Virus genome (UHGV): UHGV-2196677
DNA from: a virus
Length of the DNA: 15,349 bases
Reading direction: 5' to 3' (one strand)
Under the pieces are notes generated by a model. That model had not been told where the DNA came from. It made no database searches and was given only the letters and a program-made list of their open reading frames with translations. Both the position numbers and the translations under genes were made by a program. Below, in pieces: positions 528 through 3,409 of this stretch. Numbering within the stretch: position 1 is the first letter of the stretch; the number at the start of each line of letters is the position of its first letter.

Positions 528-731
528 ATGTTAAATCATACCACACACCCGCAAGGGCGGGACTCGCACAACCTGAATAAATACATCTGGCGTTTTATCG
601 CCCTGAGCACCGCACAACCACGCGTAATACACATCGAGGCCGCCAGCGAACAGGAAGCCCGTCAGCAATCCCCGACTGGCTGCGTGATGGTATTTACTGC
701 CCGCATCCGTCAGGGGGAATACTATGCGTGA
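528..731 (+). CDS. hypothetical protein (67 aa), first gene of the replication operon
   Basis: First in-frame ATG downstream of the predicted promoter, with GAGGT at 519-523. Its stop TGA (729-731) overlaps the next ORF's ATG (724). No family recognised. Confidence 0.4.
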   Translation: MLNHTTHPQGRDSHNLNKYIWRFIALSTAQPRVIHIEAASEQEARQQSPTGCVMVFTARIRQGEYYA

Positions 732-981
732 TGAACGATTTATTCTTCTGGAGCAAAAATTCAGTGAAGCGCCAAAAAATGAAATTGATGCTCTTTTGCA
801 TATCGCGAATATGCTAAAAGTAGCAACGTTCCTTATAGTTTCGAATCTGGAGCATGAAACGGCGTTAGATATACTGAACAGTGCTGTCGATTATTCTGAA
901 TATATTGCCGAGGATAAATACAGGCAATTACCAGATTTGTTAGCCCATAAATATAAAGAAGAACCCCATACCGGGAAATAA
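724..981 (+). CDS. hypothetical acidic protein (85 aa)
   Basis: ATG at 724 with a GGGGGAA Shine-Dalgarno at 713-719; overlaps the upstream stop. The next ORF starts 3 nt after its stop. Confidence 0.5.
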   Translation: MRDERFILLEQKFSEAPKNEIDALLHIANMLKVATFLIVSNLEHETALDILNSAVDYSEYIAEDKYRQLPDLLAHKYKEEPHTGK

Positions 982-983
982 AC

Positions 984-1286
984 ATGAAGAAGATTAAATT
1001 TACTGGCTTAAATGCCAGCGGACAGACTCGCCCGAAAATCAGGATCGGGGATATTTTCCGGGATAAATATGGCGACAGCGTGGTTATTAATTCCGTGTAT
1101 GAACGGCACATTACATACCGCCGCGCAGGGTACGACTATGACTGTGTGATGCCCGTTCATCAGTTCCGGCGTGATTTTTCACTGGTATGTGCAGTACCAC
1201 GCAGTAAGCCCACCAGTAAAGAGAAAGCACAGGCAAATATTCAGGTAATAAAGAACATGATTAACGCATTCAGGGGCAAGAAATGA
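984..1286 (+). CDS. hypothetical protein (100 aa)
   Basis: ATG at 984 with GGGAA 6 nt upstream. Its stop shares an ATGA overlap (1283-1286) with the helicase gene start, indicating translational coupling. Confidence 0.5.
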   Translation: MKKIKFTGLNASGQTRPKIRIGDIFRDKYGDSVVINSVYERHITYRRAGYDYDCVMPVHQFRRDFSLVCAVPRSKPTSKEKAQANIQVIKNMINAFRGKK

Positions 1287-3409
1287 AACGCGCACCGAAT
1301 TTAAAGCACCAGCCGAAAGACAAAATGACGGAGGTGATTATCTTTGCGGGTAGTGATGCCTGGGCACATGCGAAAGAGTGGAGCGAATGGGCCGGAAAGC
1401 ATATTGCGGCAGATGATACACATCCAGTTATTCTTGGACCGGAACAACTGGCGAGTCTGGCAGACACGCAAATCATCGACAAAGGGCGCTATTACGTGCG
1501 CGTTTATCGTGCTGGTGAAATATCAGAGCAGCACCTTACACAGATAGCGACACTGCTTGCAGTGGCGGGTGTGAAGGAGGCGCGTTGCTACCGCAGCTTT
1601 GTTGATCAGCAGCCGGAGGACTGGACACCGCGCATGGCTGGACTGAAGGATGATGCGGAACACGGTAACAGTCTGGTGATCAACCTTCCGGCGAAGACAA
1701 ATTTCACCGGAAATTATGATGACGAATTAAAGCCTCGTGTTGAAAGTCGCGTCGATGGTGTTTTCTGGGTAACGCCCAAAGTGGACAAGCAGTCAGGCGA
1801 AATTATCCGGCCTGAGACGTGGTTATGTTCTCCGCTTGAACTACTGGGAACAGGAACAATCGGAAAAGAGCATTACCGCGTAATGCGCTGGAAAAAACCA
1901 GCAAACCATGAGGTCATTACAATGGCGGTCCCGTGCGGAGGCATTGGTGACCGTGACGGCTGGCGGTTGCTGAAAGACCACGGCCTTAACGTGACGACCA
2001 ACGGCAAATACAGGGCTATCCTGGCTGACTGGATGCAGTTAAGCGGAAACCATGAGGAATGGCAGTTAAGCACAACAACGGGGTGGCATTTTGGTGCGTA
2101 CATCATGCCGGACGGTTCGGTCATTGGTGAATCAGAGAAACCCATCCTGTTTACCGGAAAAACTGCCGCTGTTAATGGCTATTCCGTGGCGGGAACAGCG
2201 GAGGGCTGGCGCGATACCGTGGCACGGCTGGCTGGTGGTAATCCGTCCATGATGCTGGGTGTGGCGGTATCGCTATCTGCACCATTAATCGGGCTGGTGG
2301 GTGCTGACGGCTTCGGGGTTCATCTTTTTGAGCAATCATCAGCAGGTAAAACCACCACACAGAACATTGCATCAAGTTTATGGGGAGAGCCGGACGCGCA
2401 ACGGCTGACCTGGTACGGAACGGCGTTAGGTATCGCCAACGAGGCCGAAGCACATAATGACGGGCTGTTACCCCTGGATGAAATAGGCCAGGCCGGAAAC
2501 GCACGGGAGGTGTCCACGTCAGCCTATACGCTGTTTAACGGTTCCGGGAAATTACAGGGGGCGAAGGACGGCGGCAACAGGGAGATAAAACACTGGCGCA
2601 CGGTGGCAATCAGCACCGGAGAAATGGACGTTGAAACATTCCTCAAAACGGAAGGGATAAAAATTAAAGCGGGGCAGCTTGTCCGTCTGCTTAACGTACC
2701 GATGGAAAAGGCCTCGCAGTTTCACGAATACAGCACCGGAAAGGCGCACGCAGACGCGTTAAAAGATGCCTGGACAGAAAATCACGGGGCGGCAGGTCGT
2801 GAGTGGGTTAAATGGCTGGCAGGCCACCAGCAGGAGGCAAAGGACGCGGTAAGGGCATGTCGCGAGCGGTGGCGCAACCTGATACCGGAGAGCTACGGCG
2901 AGCAGGTTCACCGTGTGGGGGAAAGATTCGCCGTACTGGAGGCCGCGCTTGTGCTTTCCGGTCATGTTACAGGCTGGGATGTTCAGGCGTGCCGTGATGC
3001 AGTTCAGCATAACTTTAATGCCTGGGTGAAGGAATTCGGCACGGGCAACAGGGAATTTAAACAGATGGTTGAACAGGCTGAGGCGTTTTTGTCGTCGTTC
3101 GGGTTCAGTCGATACCTTCCCTATCCAAACAGCGACGAGCGTGATTTACCGATTAAAGACCTTGCCGGATACAGAAAGGGGAGTATCAGAAACGAAGATG
3201 ACGAGTTCCGTTTTTACACGTTCCCGCATGTGTTTGAGGGTGAGATAGCACAGGGATTTAATCCGTCTCACTTTGCCCGCGCGTTGAGTGCTGCCGGAAT
3301 GCTGGAAGCGGGAGGCGACCGCCGTTACAAGAAAAAGGCGCTCGGCAGGATTGGCGGGAAGCAGCATATTTTTTACGTGCTGATGTTCCAGCCTGAAGCA
3401 GAAGATTAA
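1283..3409 (+). CDS. replication initiator/helicase of a mobile element, P-loop NTPase (DUF927-like primase-helicase type), 708 aa
   Basis: Long ORF with AGGGG Shine-Dalgarno at 1272-1276. P-loop SSAGKTT is encoded at 2336-2356 and a Walker B-like LLPLDE at 2465-2482. An iteron origin lies immediately downstream. The DUF927 label is from recollection of that family's features, not a search. Confidence 0.8.
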   Translation: MKRAPNLKHQPKDKMTEVIIFAGSDAWAHAKEWSEWAGKHIAADDTHPVILGPEQLASLADTQIIDKGRYYVRVYRAGEISEQHLTQIATLLAVAGVKEARCYRSFVDQQPEDWTPRMAGLKDDAEHGNSLVINLPAKTNFTGNYDDELKPRVESRVDGVFWVTPKVDKQSGEIIRPETWLCSPLELLGTGTIGKEHYRVMRWKKPANHEVITMAVPCGGIGDRDGWRLLKDHGLNVTTNGKYRAILADWMQLSGNHEEWQLSTTTGWHFGAYIMPDGSVIGESEKPILFTGKTAAVNGYSVAGTAEGWRDTVARLAGGNPSMMLGVAVSLSAPLIGLVGADGFGVHLFEQSSAGKTTTQNIASSLWGEPDAQRLTWYGTALGIANEAEAHNDGLLPLDEIGQAGNAREVSTSAYTLFNGSGKLQGAKDGGNREIKHWRTVAISTGEMDVETFLKTEGIKIKAGQLVRLLNVPMEKASQFHEYSTGKAHADALKDAWTENHGAAGREWVKWLAGHQQEAKDAVRACRERWRNLIPESYGEQVHRVGERFAVLEAALVLSGHVTGWDVQACRDAVQHNFNAWVKEFGTGNREFKQMVEQAEAFLSSFGFSRYLPYPNSDERDLPIKDLAGYRKGSIRNEDDEFRFYTFPHVFEGEIAQGFNPSHFARALSAAGMLEAGGDRRYKKKALGRIGGKQHIFYVLMFQPEAED

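What the first reader, a model, noticed from the sequence alone, without database searches (positions are those of the whole stretch)
528..3409. Replication helicase co-translated with three unknown small proteins
Four ORFs are chained by overlaps (ATG/TGA at 724-731, a 3-nt gap at 981-984, ATGA at 1283-1286), each with a good Shine-Dalgarno. Products are 67, 85 and 100 aa proteins and the 708-aa P-loop helicase. The small proteins resemble nothing I recognise. In island and satellite replication modules, such small partners are often helicase loaders, primase-interaction factors, derepressors or anti-host factors.
Basis: partly seen in the sequence, partly recalled or inferred. Interest (0 to 1): 0.45.

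Follow-up and report, generated by a model that had tools for sequence, protein, structure and literature searches.

The report
Satellite island early replication operon
The four chained genes are the early/replication operon of an E. coli phage-satellite-type island, built like the left operon of satellite phage P4, so the arrangement is an ordinary member of a known kind even though two of its small proteins still have no known job.

Summary
Four plus-strand ORFs (528-731, 724-981, 984-1286, 1283-3409) are chained by an 8-nt overlap, a 2-nt gap (not 3) and an ATGA overlap, and NCBI annotates the same four genes in E. coli.

- ORF1 belongs to the Icd-like family, which also contains P4 Kil. 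Like kil inside eta, it is the tail of a much longer frame kept open upstream.
- ORF3 is a DUF4222 protein, 62% identical to the likely RgdR of O157:H7; RgdR is reported in all analysed E. coli PICIs.
- ORF2 is a rare acidic cassette. It sits in a slot where at least 9 small-ORF families are shuffled between elements.
- ORF4 is a DUF927 P-loop replicase. It has a Toprim-like N-terminal domain that lacks the catalytic acidic residues, and an iteron origin lies just downstream.

All three small ORFs evolve under purifying selection (dN/dS 0.16-0.48).

A dedicated helicase-partner role is unlikely for ORF1 and ORF2 and open for ORF3. DUF4222 sits ATGA-coupled in front of replicases that share the Toprim-like N-terminus, whichever helicase core follows.

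Verdict: new member of a known kind, modest interest.

The parts
125..322 (-). Divergent YlcI/YnfO-family (DUF3950) small protein with a ribbon-helix-helix-like sequence pattern; candidate repressor of the operon
   Evidence: NF041551 E=3.5e-16 and PF13132 E=1.6e-6. Annotated by PGAP. Homologous minus-strand genes occupy the same place in related loci. The repressor role is inferred from position and the adjacent palindromes.
350..429 (+). Promoter-like site (TTGACA 391-396, 16-nt spacer, TTTAAT 413-418) with TGTGCGCACA palindromes at 350-359 (1 mismatch), 397-406 and 420-429; candidate operators
   Evidence: Read from the sequence. The -35 TTGAC is conserved, and each relative carries its own GTG...CAC repeat pair at the same place (alignment A3). 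The consensus scan did not list the site because the -10 lacks A at position 2. Function is inferred.
459..519 (+). Structured leader: hairpin 1 (459-490, variable loop), conserved linker TCTAACCACCAAC (491-503), and hairpin 2 (503-519) abutting the ORF1 Shine-Dalgarno site
   Evidence: Covariation on 12 sequences: 6 pairs and 16 cells changed on both sides, with 0 of 500 shuffles reaching the observed paired percentage, both-sides cell count or covariation score. Slid controls gave 0-2. Further compensatory variants occur in viral contigs. The MFE fold contains both hairpins. No Rfam family matches.
3..731 (+). Eta-like long open frame in phase with ORF1, running antisense across ylcI; open beyond the window's 5' end
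   Evidence: 397 open codons in L001. A candidate start, ATG L001:16694, overlaps the BRO-N stop (ATGTGTAA) and has a GGAGGG SD. In 13 of 17 loci the 600 nt upstream have 0-2 stops in this frame against 8-18 in the other frames. Stop-free non-coding parts have P of about 5e-3 to 7e-8 per locus. P4 eta/kil is the precedent.
528..731 (+). ORF1: Icd-like / P4 Kil-like 67-aa protein, first gene after the proximal promoter
   Evidence: NF033153 68.6 bits against a cut-off of 25. P4 Kil scores 76.1 bits on the same model. Present upstream of the replicase in 11 of 13 related loci. dN/dS 0.16-0.31.
724..981 (+). ORF2: 85-aa acidic (pI 5.1) accessory cassette of unknown function
   Evidence: No Pfam or NCBIfam family. 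PHROG 24341 and 2512 at E of about 1e-17. 2 clusters in 5.8e9 proteins and 11 representatives in 1.84e9. Homologues at 40-48% identity, some fused behind another cassette. dN/dS 0.24-0.38.
984..1286 (+). ORF3: DUF4222 (RgdR-family) 100-aa basic protein; small beta-barrel plus C-terminal helix
1283..3409 (+). ORF4: replicase. Toprim-like N-terminal domain (about residues 1-130), DUF927 P-loop helicase (169-436, Walker A at nt 2339-2356) and a C-terminal region
3433..3557 (.). Candidate replication origin: 4 direct TAACCCGCA iterons (3495-3557) and 2 inverted copies (3433-3450) flanking an AT-rich stretch
   Evidence: the repeat finder families D1-D3 and I1-I9. An origin immediately downstream of the replicase gene is reported for PICIs. 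Function is inferred.

Best explanation
The region is the early/replication operon of an integrated, PICI/P4-type satellite-like island at a tRNA-Gly gene of E. coli. It is organised like the left operon of satellite phage P4.

**Shown here**
1. ORF1 is a member of the Icd-like family, which includes P4 Kil.
2. ORF1 is the 3' end of a long frame kept open by selection, as kil is the end of eta in P4.
3. A divergent small RHH-like gene, a promoter flanked by palindromes and a covarying two-hairpin leader lie just upstream. No C4/CI immunity RNA is detected.
4. The ORFs are joined by overlaps or very short gaps, as in relatives and in P4.
5. ORF2 lies in a slot where small, mostly acidic ORF families are exchanged between elements.
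6. ORF3 is an RgdR-family DUF4222 protein. Its last codons carry the ribosome-binding site and start of the replicase gene.
7. ORF4 is a DUF927 helicase with a Toprim-like N-terminal domain lacking the catalytic acidic motifs. An iteron/AT-rich origin follows.

**Inferred**
- In the quiescent island the YlcI-like protein represses the proximal promoter.
- On induction, transcripts from the upstream AlpA/Bro region are translated through the Eta-like frame. As in P4, this would prevent Rho-dependent termination and carry expression into the operon.
- Translational coupling then delivers Kil/Icd-like protein (division arrest or toxicity), the accessory cassette protein (probably acting on helper phage or host), RgdR-like protein and the replicase. 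The replicase would fire the adjacent origin using host priming.

The small proteins are therefore mostly regulatory or accessory passengers of a coupled early operon, not a helicase-loading complex. ORF3 is the only plausible replicase partner.
For: **Family assignments:**

**P4 comparison**
- P4 gene order is kil/eta, epsilon, orf151, cnr, alpha, with two 8-nt overlaps.
- P4 Kil is Icd-like.
- The published summary of eta/kil anti-termination and coupling to the alpA homologue is in PMC10111431.

**Long open frame:**

**Context**
- The island carries int, HTH, AntA/B, BRO-N, ylcI, then the operon, SSB, ProQ and PerC at tRNA-Gly.
- The same architecture occurs in E. coli cf-PICI-type elements and O157 OI-51 and in an induced cf-PICI.
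- RgdR is encoded by all analysed E. coli PICIs, AlpA is the activator, and pri-rep is needed for efficient PICI transfer (PMC6092414).

**Cassette shuffling:**

**Selection and leader**
- Purifying selection on all ORFs.
- Leader covariation.

**Origin and replicase**
- Origin iterons.
- Helicase relatives with solved structures.
- Toprim-like fold of the NTD, with the catalytic motifs replaced.
Against: - No expression, toxicity, replication or termination data exist for this element. Every functional step is by analogy.
- No capsid, terminase, sid/psu/delta or other packaging or hijacking gene was found. Its status as a phage satellite, rather than another kind of integrative island, is unproven.
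- The P4-type C4 RNA is absent here, so the P4 immunity mechanism cannot be transferred as such. The function of the covarying leader is unknown.
- ORF2, ORF3 and P4 epsilon, orf151 and cnr show no BLAST similarity. Equivalence is positional only.
- The thermodynamic z-score of the leader is weak, -1.08.
- Protein-level selection on the Eta-like extension is only suggestive, being based on few substitutions.
Confidence: 0.8

Rival explanations
1. One reading: the three small proteins are dedicated partners of the helicase (loader, primase-interaction or regulatory subunits), co-translated to fix stoichiometry.
For: - Tight coupling of all junctions.
- DUF4222 lies directly upstream, with a conserved ATGA overlap, of replicases that share the Toprim-like N-terminus regardless of helicase core (DUF927, P4-family primase, RepA, DUF5906).
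- In 38 leader-bearing viral contigs, 34 have DUF4222, 34 have the NTD and 30 have the two adjacent.
- P4 cnr, in the same position, is from memory a regulator that binds the alpha replicase.
- SCCmec operons pair DUF927 helicases with small partner proteins (PMC7581432, listed, not read here).
Against: - The ORF1 family heads the P4 left operon, directly upstream of the non-replication gene epsilon, and from memory the P1 immI operon upstream of ant.
- ORF2 is absent from most relatives and its slot is shuffled.
- NTD-type replicases occur without DUF4222 in L003, L005, L009, L012 and L014.
- RgdR alone, in trans, changes LEE1 promoter activity and motility and binds DNA weakly.
- Adjacency is expected from linkage within one recombination module and does not by itself show interaction.
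Confidence: 0.12
2. The operon works primarily as a phage-triggered cell-death or superinfection-exclusion module. The Icd/Kil-like protein is the toxic effector, and the variable cassettes (including ORF2) sense or respond to incoming phage proteins. Replication is secondary.
For: - Silas et al. (bioRxiv 10.1101/2023.04.06.535777) report a prophage-encoded system in ECOR61.
[quoted passage not shown] - Rapid cassette turnover in the ORF2 slot is typical of conflict genes.
Against: - Sequence identity between the ECOR61 locus and this window was not tested.
- No PADLOC model hits any of the three small proteins.
- The replicase and origin are intact and under strong purifying selection, which fits a replicating element.
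- The two readings are not mutually exclusive.
Confidence: 0.12
3. The small ORFs are annotation noise: untranslated open frames in a long 5' leader of the helicase gene.
For: - They are short.
- ORF2 has almost no homologues in a word-indexed search of 5.8e9 proteins.
- There is no direct expression evidence.
Against: - dN/dS is 0.16-0.48 in the annotated frames against diverged homologues.
- Curated HMM hits above cut-off for ORF1 and ORF3.
- ORF2 relatives have a conserved motif pattern and include stand-alone 76-77-aa forms.
- RgdR has experimental phenotypes, and from memory P4 Kil does too.
Confidence: 0.03

Closest known systems
Left (early/replication) operon of satellite phage P4: kil/eta, epsilon, orf151, cnr, alpha, with the cI (C4-type) RNA
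   Same: - The first gene is an Icd-like 65-67-aa ORF (P4 Kil 76 bits, window ORF1 69 bits on NF033153).
- That ORF is nested at the end of a longer frame that starts upstream of the proximal promoter.
- 8-nt ATGnnTGA-type overlaps join the first genes.
- Small accessory ORFs precede a large replicase.
   Different: - No C4/CI RNA or isrK/seqA element is found here, although the closest relative, L002, has both.
- This element instead has a divergent RHH-like gene, palindromic operators and a different two-hairpin leader.
- The Eta-like frame runs antisense through that repressor gene.
- ORF2 and ORF3 are not similar to epsilon, orf151 or cnr.
- The replicase is DUF927 with a degenerate Toprim domain. 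P4 alpha is a P4-family primase-helicase (TIGR01613) and is origin-binding from memory.
- No sid, delta or psu genes.
Gram-negative PICIs and capsid-forming PICIs of E. coli (EcCICFT073, O157:H7 O-island 51/CP-933C with RgdR)
   Same: - Gene order int, alpA/HTH, Bro zone, ylcI (minus strand), icd-like, small ORFs, DUF4222/RgdR, replicase, ori, SSB, PerC.
- ORF3 is 62% identical to the O157 RgdR-type protein.
- The replicase N-terminal domain is shared.
   Different: - The late zone has no capsid or packaging genes. It carries ProQ/FinO and three large proteins without any family hit.
- The helicase core is DUF927, which only 9 of 34 leader-bearing contigs have.
- ORF3 has IGD where RgdR has the RGD motif.
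Phage P1 immI operon (c4 RNA, icd, ant)
   Same: An Icd-family ORF acts as a short leading gene translationally coupled to the next gene. The P1 details are from memory; family membership was tested.
   Different: There is no c4 RNA here. The downstream genes are accessory and replication genes, not an antirepressor.
DUF927 helicases of staphylococcal elements (SaPI replication protein 8tch; SCCmec Cch 5dgk)
   Same: Sequence-related P-loop core: E=1.7e-14 to 8tch and 9e-4 to 5dgk, NF047345 E=9.6e-10. In both cases the helicase belongs to a replication operon of an integrative element.
   Different: The N-terminal Toprim-like domain, the C-terminal region and the small upstream genes are unrelated. 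The NCBIfam Cch1 score is far below its cut-off (37.6 against 700).

Membership tests
Icd-like / P4 Kil family (NCBIfam NF033153) | Profile score above the curated cut-off | tested here: met
   ORF1 scores 68.6 bits against a cut-off of 25, E=3.4e-19. P4 Kil scores 76.1 bits on the same model.
Icd-like / P4 Kil family (NCBIfam NF033153) | Expression inhibits cell division or kills the host | not testable with these tools
   Needs induced expression and microscopy or viability counts.
P4 eta/kil arrangement | The short ORF is the in-frame 3' end of a longer ORF that starts upstream of the proximal promoter | tested here: met
   The frame is open for 397 codons in L001, with a coupled ATG at the BRO-N stop. 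13 of 17 loci have 0-2 stops in the 600 nt upstream, against 8-18 in the other frames.
P4 eta/kil arrangement | Translation of the long ORF prevents Rho-dependent termination | not testable with these tools
   Known for P4 (summary in PMC10111431). Here it is only inferred.
C4/CI antisense-RNA immunity (Rfam RF01695, with isrK and c4-a1b1) | A C4-type RNA gene upstream of the icd/kil ORF | tested here: not met
   No hit at E<=1 in the whole window or at E<=10 in 300-800. Positive controls: P4 at 74.9 bits and L002, L008 and L013 at about 77 bits.
DUF4222 / RgdR family (Pfam PF13973) | Profile score above the gathering threshold | tested here: met
   ORF3 scores 65.2 bits against 27. It is 62% identical to the O157:H7 protein with the RGD motif.
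DUF4222 / RgdR family (Pfam PF13973) | RGD motif (R20) needed for activation of type III secretion | tested here: not met
   ORF3 reads R-I-G-D, with Ile at the R20-equivalent position. The motif's importance is from PMC3378721.
DUF927 replicative helicase (Pfam PF06048) | Profile hit plus Walker A and B motifs | tested here: met
   159.1 bits against 22.6. SAGKTT at 353-358 and LLPLDE at 395-400. PDB relatives 8tch and 5dgk.
DnaG/Toprim-type primase domain | Toprim fold | tested here: inconclusive
DnaG/Toprim-type primase domain | Catalytic acidic residues: Glu of the EG motif and Asp of the DxD motif (motif positions recalled from DnaG) | tested here: not met
   The sequence has IIFAGSD (Ala22 in the Glu position) and VRVYRAG (Arg73 and Tyr75 in the Asp positions). 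A22, G23, R73, A77 and G78 are invariant in 33 homologues.
P4-like satellite | sid, delta and psu capsid-hijacking genes together with int, alpA/vis and alpha | tested here: not met
   None is annotated or detected in the island. Pfam, NCBIfam and PADLOC find nothing comparable downstream.
Gram-negative PICI | int, alpA-type regulator, pri-rep and ori in one direction at a specific att site | tested here: met
   At tRNA-Gly the island has int, an HTH regulator, the replicase and iterons. The architecture matches E. coli PICI and cf-PICI loci. AlpA identity of the HTH gene was not confirmed.
Gram-negative PICI | Helper-phage induction and packaging (packaging, interference or capsid genes; transfer) | not testable with these tools
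   No recognisable packaging or capsid gene was found. Induction and transfer need experiments.

The most novel reading that the evidence does not exclude
The RgdR-family DUF4222 protein is a Tudor/KOW-like barrel. It may be the functional partner of a Toprim-derived, catalytically dead N-terminal domain that is shared by at least four replicase families of enterobacterial satellites. Together they would form a primase-less initiation or copy-control device, for example one that recruits host priming or RNA polymerase to the origin. On this reading, RgdR's reported effects on LEE, motility and curli are side-effects of a replication-coupled factor and not the work of a dedicated virulence regulator.
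Probability: 0.2. Interest if true: 0.55.

Novelty: new member of a known kind. Interest (0 to 1): 0.3.

Why it matters
The main value is in removing a false lead. The 'unknown small proteins' belong largely to a module whose logic was worked out for P4 and which is widespread: parts of window 1-1300 match in 1,902 of 5,426 complete E. coli genomes.

Three points may interest satellite specialists.
1. RgdR, known only as a virulence-gene regulator, is structurally a Tudor/KOW-like barrel. It is always wired by an ATGA overlap to replicases that carry a degenerate Toprim domain. This gives a concrete, testable idea for its native role.
2. Elements without the C4 immunity RNA carry a different covarying two-hairpin leader and a protein repressor at the same place.
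3. The Eta-like frame is kept open even where it runs antisense through the repressor gene.

None of these changes the classification of the finding.

Tried and rejected
- **Rfam C4/CI RNA in the window:** none found. The weak R1162-like hit (E=1.1) was dismissed as chance.
- **A target complementary to the leader linker elsewhere in the window:** only the site itself was found.
- **hhalign of the NTD against the Zn-ribbon and Toprim regions of relatives:** no signal. The Toprim assignment therefore rests on the fold search and motif remnants only.
- **tblastn of ORF1 and ORF3 against 50,697 phage genomes:** one cf-PICI hit for ORF1 and none for ORF3. These genes belong to chromosomal satellites, not to the deposited phage genomes searched.
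- **PDB sequence searches for ORF1, ORF2 and ORF3:** nothing.
- **PADLOC on the small proteins and the cargo:** nothing.
- **BLAST of ORF2 and ORF3 against P4 epsilon, orf151 and cnr:** nothing.
- **dN/dS against the 96%-identical relative L021:** too few substitutions in the small ORFs to be informative, so it was replaced by comparisons with more distant homologues.
- **Selection test on the non-overlapping Eta-like segment:** lowest pN/pS in the Eta frame (0.35-0.45 against 0.8-1.7), but based on about 10 changes, so inconclusive.
- **Shadow-ORF explanation for the long frame:** rejected. Synonymous recoding of the minus-strand genes leaves the frame open fairly often, but the non-coding parts would not be stop-free by chance.
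- **Literature look-ups:** one search was wasted on word-start matches. The primary P4 eta/kil paper (Forti et al. 1999) is not held, so that mechanism is cited through PMC10111431 and from memory.
- **14-mer scan of viral contigs:** 120 loci, but only 38 had the hairpin context. The rest were treated as chance matches.

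
Full report
**1. What is in the sequence**

The four plus-strand ORFs exist as described.
- ORF1 (528-731, 67 aa) overlaps ORF2 (724-981, 85 aa) by 8 nt (ATGcgTGA).
- ORF2 ends at TAA 979-981, and ORF3 (984-1286, 100 aa) starts two bases later.
- ORF3 and ORF4 (1283-3409, 708 aa) share ATGA.
- Shine-Dalgarno sequences are good for ORF1 (GAGG), ORF2 (GGGGGA) and ORF4 (AGGGG), and weaker for ORF3 (GGGAA).
- ORF4 has Walker A SAGKTT (residues 353-358) and LLPLDE (395-400).

The window is E. coli DNA. It is 99.9% identical to NZ_CP070115, where PGAP annotates the same four genes.

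**2. Context**

The parent locus (L001) is an island of roughly 19-20 kb next to a tRNA-Gly gene. Its gene order is:
- integrase, a hypothetical gene, an HTH regulator, AntA/AntB and BRO-N;
- two small minus-strand genes, the second a YlcI/YnfO protein (window 125-322);
- the four-gene operon;
- SSB, ProQ/FinO, a 138-aa unknown and a frameshifted PerC;
- three large proteins and a 104-aa protein with no Pfam, NCBIfam or PADLOC hit.

The published zone order for Gram-negative PICIs is integration, Bro, replication and late (PMC10111431; PMC6092414). This island follows it, except that no capsid or packaging gene is recognisable.

**3. Identity of each product**

*ORF1*
- It hits the NCBIfam Icd-like model at 68.6 bits against a cut-off of 25.
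- I extracted the last 65 codons of the old P4 'cI' ORF. From memory, this is Kil. It hits the same model at 76.1 bits.

*ORF3*
- It is DUF4222, at 65.2 bits against a cut-off of 27.
- The one characterised DUF4222 protein is RgdR of O157:H7 O-island 51. It activates the LEE1 promoter, represses motility and binds DNA weakly and non-specifically (PMC3378721; PMC10877973).
- RgdR is stated to be encoded by all analysed E. coli PICIs.
- The DUF4222 protein at the matching O157:H7 locus carries the RGD motif at residues 20-22. It is 62% identical to ORF3, which has IGD there.

*ORF2*
- It has no Pfam or NCBIfam family, and only PHROGs of unknown function.
- It has 2 near-identical clusters among 5.8e9 proteins and 11 representatives among 1.84e9.
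- The relatives share a clear motif pattern, M[RLY]DDRF..LK.EF.G.P.D..AL. Stand-alone 76-77-aa forms exist, as do forms fused behind another cassette.

*ORF4*
- It is a DUF927 protein (E=2.5e-46).
- It has sequence relatives among the solved SaPI protein 8tch (1.7e-14) and the SCCmec helicase Cch 5dgk (9e-4).

**4. Are the small ORFs real genes?**

Against diverged homologues, dN/dS in the annotated frames is:
- 0.16-0.31 for ORF1;
- 0.24-0.38 for ORF2;
- 0.22-0.48 for ORF3.

The helicase gives pN/pS 0.05 against a 96% identical relative. ORF2 is nevertheless sparsely distributed.

**5. Comparative anatomy**

Twelve loci from other Enterobacterales were fetched through the helicase, together with an induced cf-PICI.
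- An Icd-like ORF lies upstream of the replicase in 11 of the 13.
- ORF2 is in none.
- DUF4222 is in 4.

Five E. coli relatives show the order YlcI (minus strand; not annotated at the O157:H7 locus L020), Icd-like, 3-5 small ORFs, DUF4222, replicase, a small ORF and SSB, usually followed by capsid genes.

The small ORFs between icd and DUF4222 fall into at least 9 recurring families that are combined differently in different elements.
- They are mostly acidic, with pI 4.2-5.1.
- Junction offsets are -17 to +17 nt. Many are ATGnnTGA or ATGTGCAATAA overlaps, so that proteins end in ...HA or ...HVQ.
- P4 has the same layout: kil/eta, an 8-nt overlap, epsilon, an 8-nt overlap, orf151, cnr, alpha.

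**6. The ORF1 frame is an Eta-like long ORF**

- The ORF1 frame is open for 397 codons in L001. It crosses the promoter region and runs antisense through ylcI and the neighbouring minus-strand gene.
- In 13 of 17 loci the 600 nt upstream of icd have 0-2 stops in this frame, against 8-18 in each of the other two frames.
- Synonymous recoding shows that the minus-strand genes alone do not explain this. The non-coding parts would be stop-free with P of about 5e-3 to 7e-8 per locus.
- In L001 a candidate start, ATG 16694, overlaps the BRO-N stop (ATGTGTAA) behind a GGAGGG site. In the cf-PICI the long ORF overlaps the preceding gene by ATGA.
- This matches what is described for P4. Kil is a truncated Eta made from a promoter internal to eta. 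Full-length eta is coupled to the alpA homologue. Its translation prevents termination, so late transcripts read through (PMC10111431). I recall the primary paper as Forti et al. 1999, which is not held.

**7. Regulation differs from P4**

- P4 and the closest relative L002 (E. albertii, helicase 79% identical) carry isrK and the C4/CI RNA upstream of kil/icd. The window has neither.
- Instead there is a promoter-like site: TTGACA 391-396, a 16-nt spacer and TTTAAT 413-418.
- Its spacer and start region are occupied by TGTGCGCACA palindromes at 397-406 and 420-429, with a third imperfect copy at 350-359.
- Relatives keep the -35 but carry their own GTG...CAC repeats. This fits operators matched to the variable YlcI-like RHH protein; the link is inferred.
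- Between promoter and ORF1 lies a conserved leader: hairpin 1 (459-490, variable loop), the linker UCUAACCACCAAC, and hairpin 2 (503-519) abutting the SD.
- On 12 sequences, 6 pairs and 16 cells show changes on both sides. No shuffle out of 500 reached the observed paired percentage, both-sides cell count or covariation score, and slid controls gave 0-2.
- Viral contigs add further compensatory variants, including an entirely different inner stem.
- The function of the leader is unknown. Candidates are SD occlusion, a processing site, or a target or partner of an antisense RNA or of the ProQ/FinO protein. None was tested.

**8. The replicase and DUF4222**

- E. coli replicases annotated as DUF927, 'DNA primase family', 'P4-family primase', 'helicase RepA family' and DUF5906 all begin with the same domain of about 125 aa: MK.APN.K...TEVIIFAGSDAW...R.YRAG....
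- Partial homologues of this domain carry D5_N or AAA_25 Pfam hits.
- Against the DnaG motifs as I recall them (EGxxD and DxDxAG), the domain keeps G23, D25, A77 and G78. It has Ala22, Arg73 and Tyr75 in the acidic positions, and A22, G23, R73, A77 and G78 are invariant in 33 homologues.
- DUF4222 sits immediately upstream with an ATGA overlap in every E. coli example. Its invariant C-terminus, RGKK, encodes the replicase SD and start.
- Among 38 viral contigs with the leader, 34 have icd, 34 have DUF4222 and 34 have the NTD. Only 9 have a DUF927 core, and DUF4222 is adjacent to the NTD in 30.
- DUF4222 also precedes Zn-ribbon and Toprim DUF927 replicases in L008 and L013. NTD replicases exist without it in L003, L005, L009, L012 and L014.
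- This fits either a transcription-linked role, as RgdR's phenotypes suggest, or a replicase-linked role. The data do not decide between them.

**9. Origin**

Directly after ORF4 there are four direct TAACCCGCA iterons (3495-3557) and two inverted copies (3433-3450) around an AT-rich stretch. PICIs are reported to place their origin immediately downstream of pri-rep in the same way.

**10. Verdict**

The feature is a new member of a known kind: the P4/PICI early-replication operon. Two of the three 'unknown' proteins belong to named families, one of which has experimental data.

The idea that all three are helicase partners is unlikely. For DUF4222 it remains a reasonable, testable hypothesis.

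Interest is modest at 0.3. The most novel reading not excluded is that RgdR-family proteins are native partners of the dead-Toprim replicase domain.

Noticed in passing
window 5646-8177, 8177-10237, 10237-12993, 12993-13307: Three large co-directional, abutting ORFs (843, 686 and 918 aa) and a 104-aa ORF have no hit in Pfam, NCBIfam or PADLOC. They occupy the 'late/accessory' zone where related PICIs carry capsid genes or defence systems. They may be an undescribed cargo or defence system.
   Followed up: partly
window 3-731 (continues upstream: L001 16541/16694-17731): The frame of the Icd-like ORF is kept open for 346-397 codons and runs antisense through two real minus-strand genes, including the YlcI-like repressor candidate. 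13 of 17 related loci have 0-2 stops in this frame against 8-18 in the other frames. It is analogous to P4 eta/kil, but here it overlaps the divergent repressor gene.
   Followed up: partly
window 459-519: A two-hairpin leader with compensatory base changes and a conserved UCUAACCACCAAC linker lies upstream of the Icd-like ORF. It matches no Rfam family. It occurs in elements that lack the C4/CI immunity RNA.
   Followed up: partly
window 350-429 (also 86-96): TGTGCGCACA palindromes bracket a TTGACA-16-TTTAAT promoter-like site. Relatives have different GTG...CAC repeats at the same position, as expected for repressor/operator specificity pairs.
   Followed up: partly
window 1283-1700 (ORF4 residues 1-~130): A Toprim-like N-terminal domain without the catalytic Glu and DxD residues is shared by replicases with at least four different helicase cores (DUF927, D5_N/P4-type, RepA/AAA_25, DUF5906). 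NCBI names these proteins 'DNA primase'.
   Followed up: partly
window 3433-3557: An iteron-type origin lies just after the replicase gene: 4 direct and 2 inverted TAACCCGCA copies around an AT-rich core.
   Followed up: yes
window 3620-4045, 4082-4579, 4560-4976, ~4985-5210: SSB, a ProQ/FinO-family RNA chaperone, an unknown 138-aa ORF overlapping the ProQ gene's end by 20 nt, and a frameshifted PerC-family regulator follow the origin. The ProQ/FinO gene hints at RNA-based regulation within the island.
   Followed up: no
L002 5069-5257 (Escherichia albertii): The closest relative of the helicase (79% identity) has isrK and a C4 antisense RNA directly upstream of its Icd-like ORF. RNA-based and protein-repressor-based control modules therefore appear to be exchanged in front of homologous operons.
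   Followed up: partly
L015-L018, L020, L014, and window 724-731: Cassette junctions are stereotyped (ATGCGTGA, or cATGTGCAATAA giving '...HA*' or '...HVQ*' ends and 'MR...' or 'MCN...' starts). Two cassettes are sometimes fused into one ORF (e.g. L017 3351-3797). This suggests recombination at conserved junctions that preserve translational coupling.
   Followed up: partly
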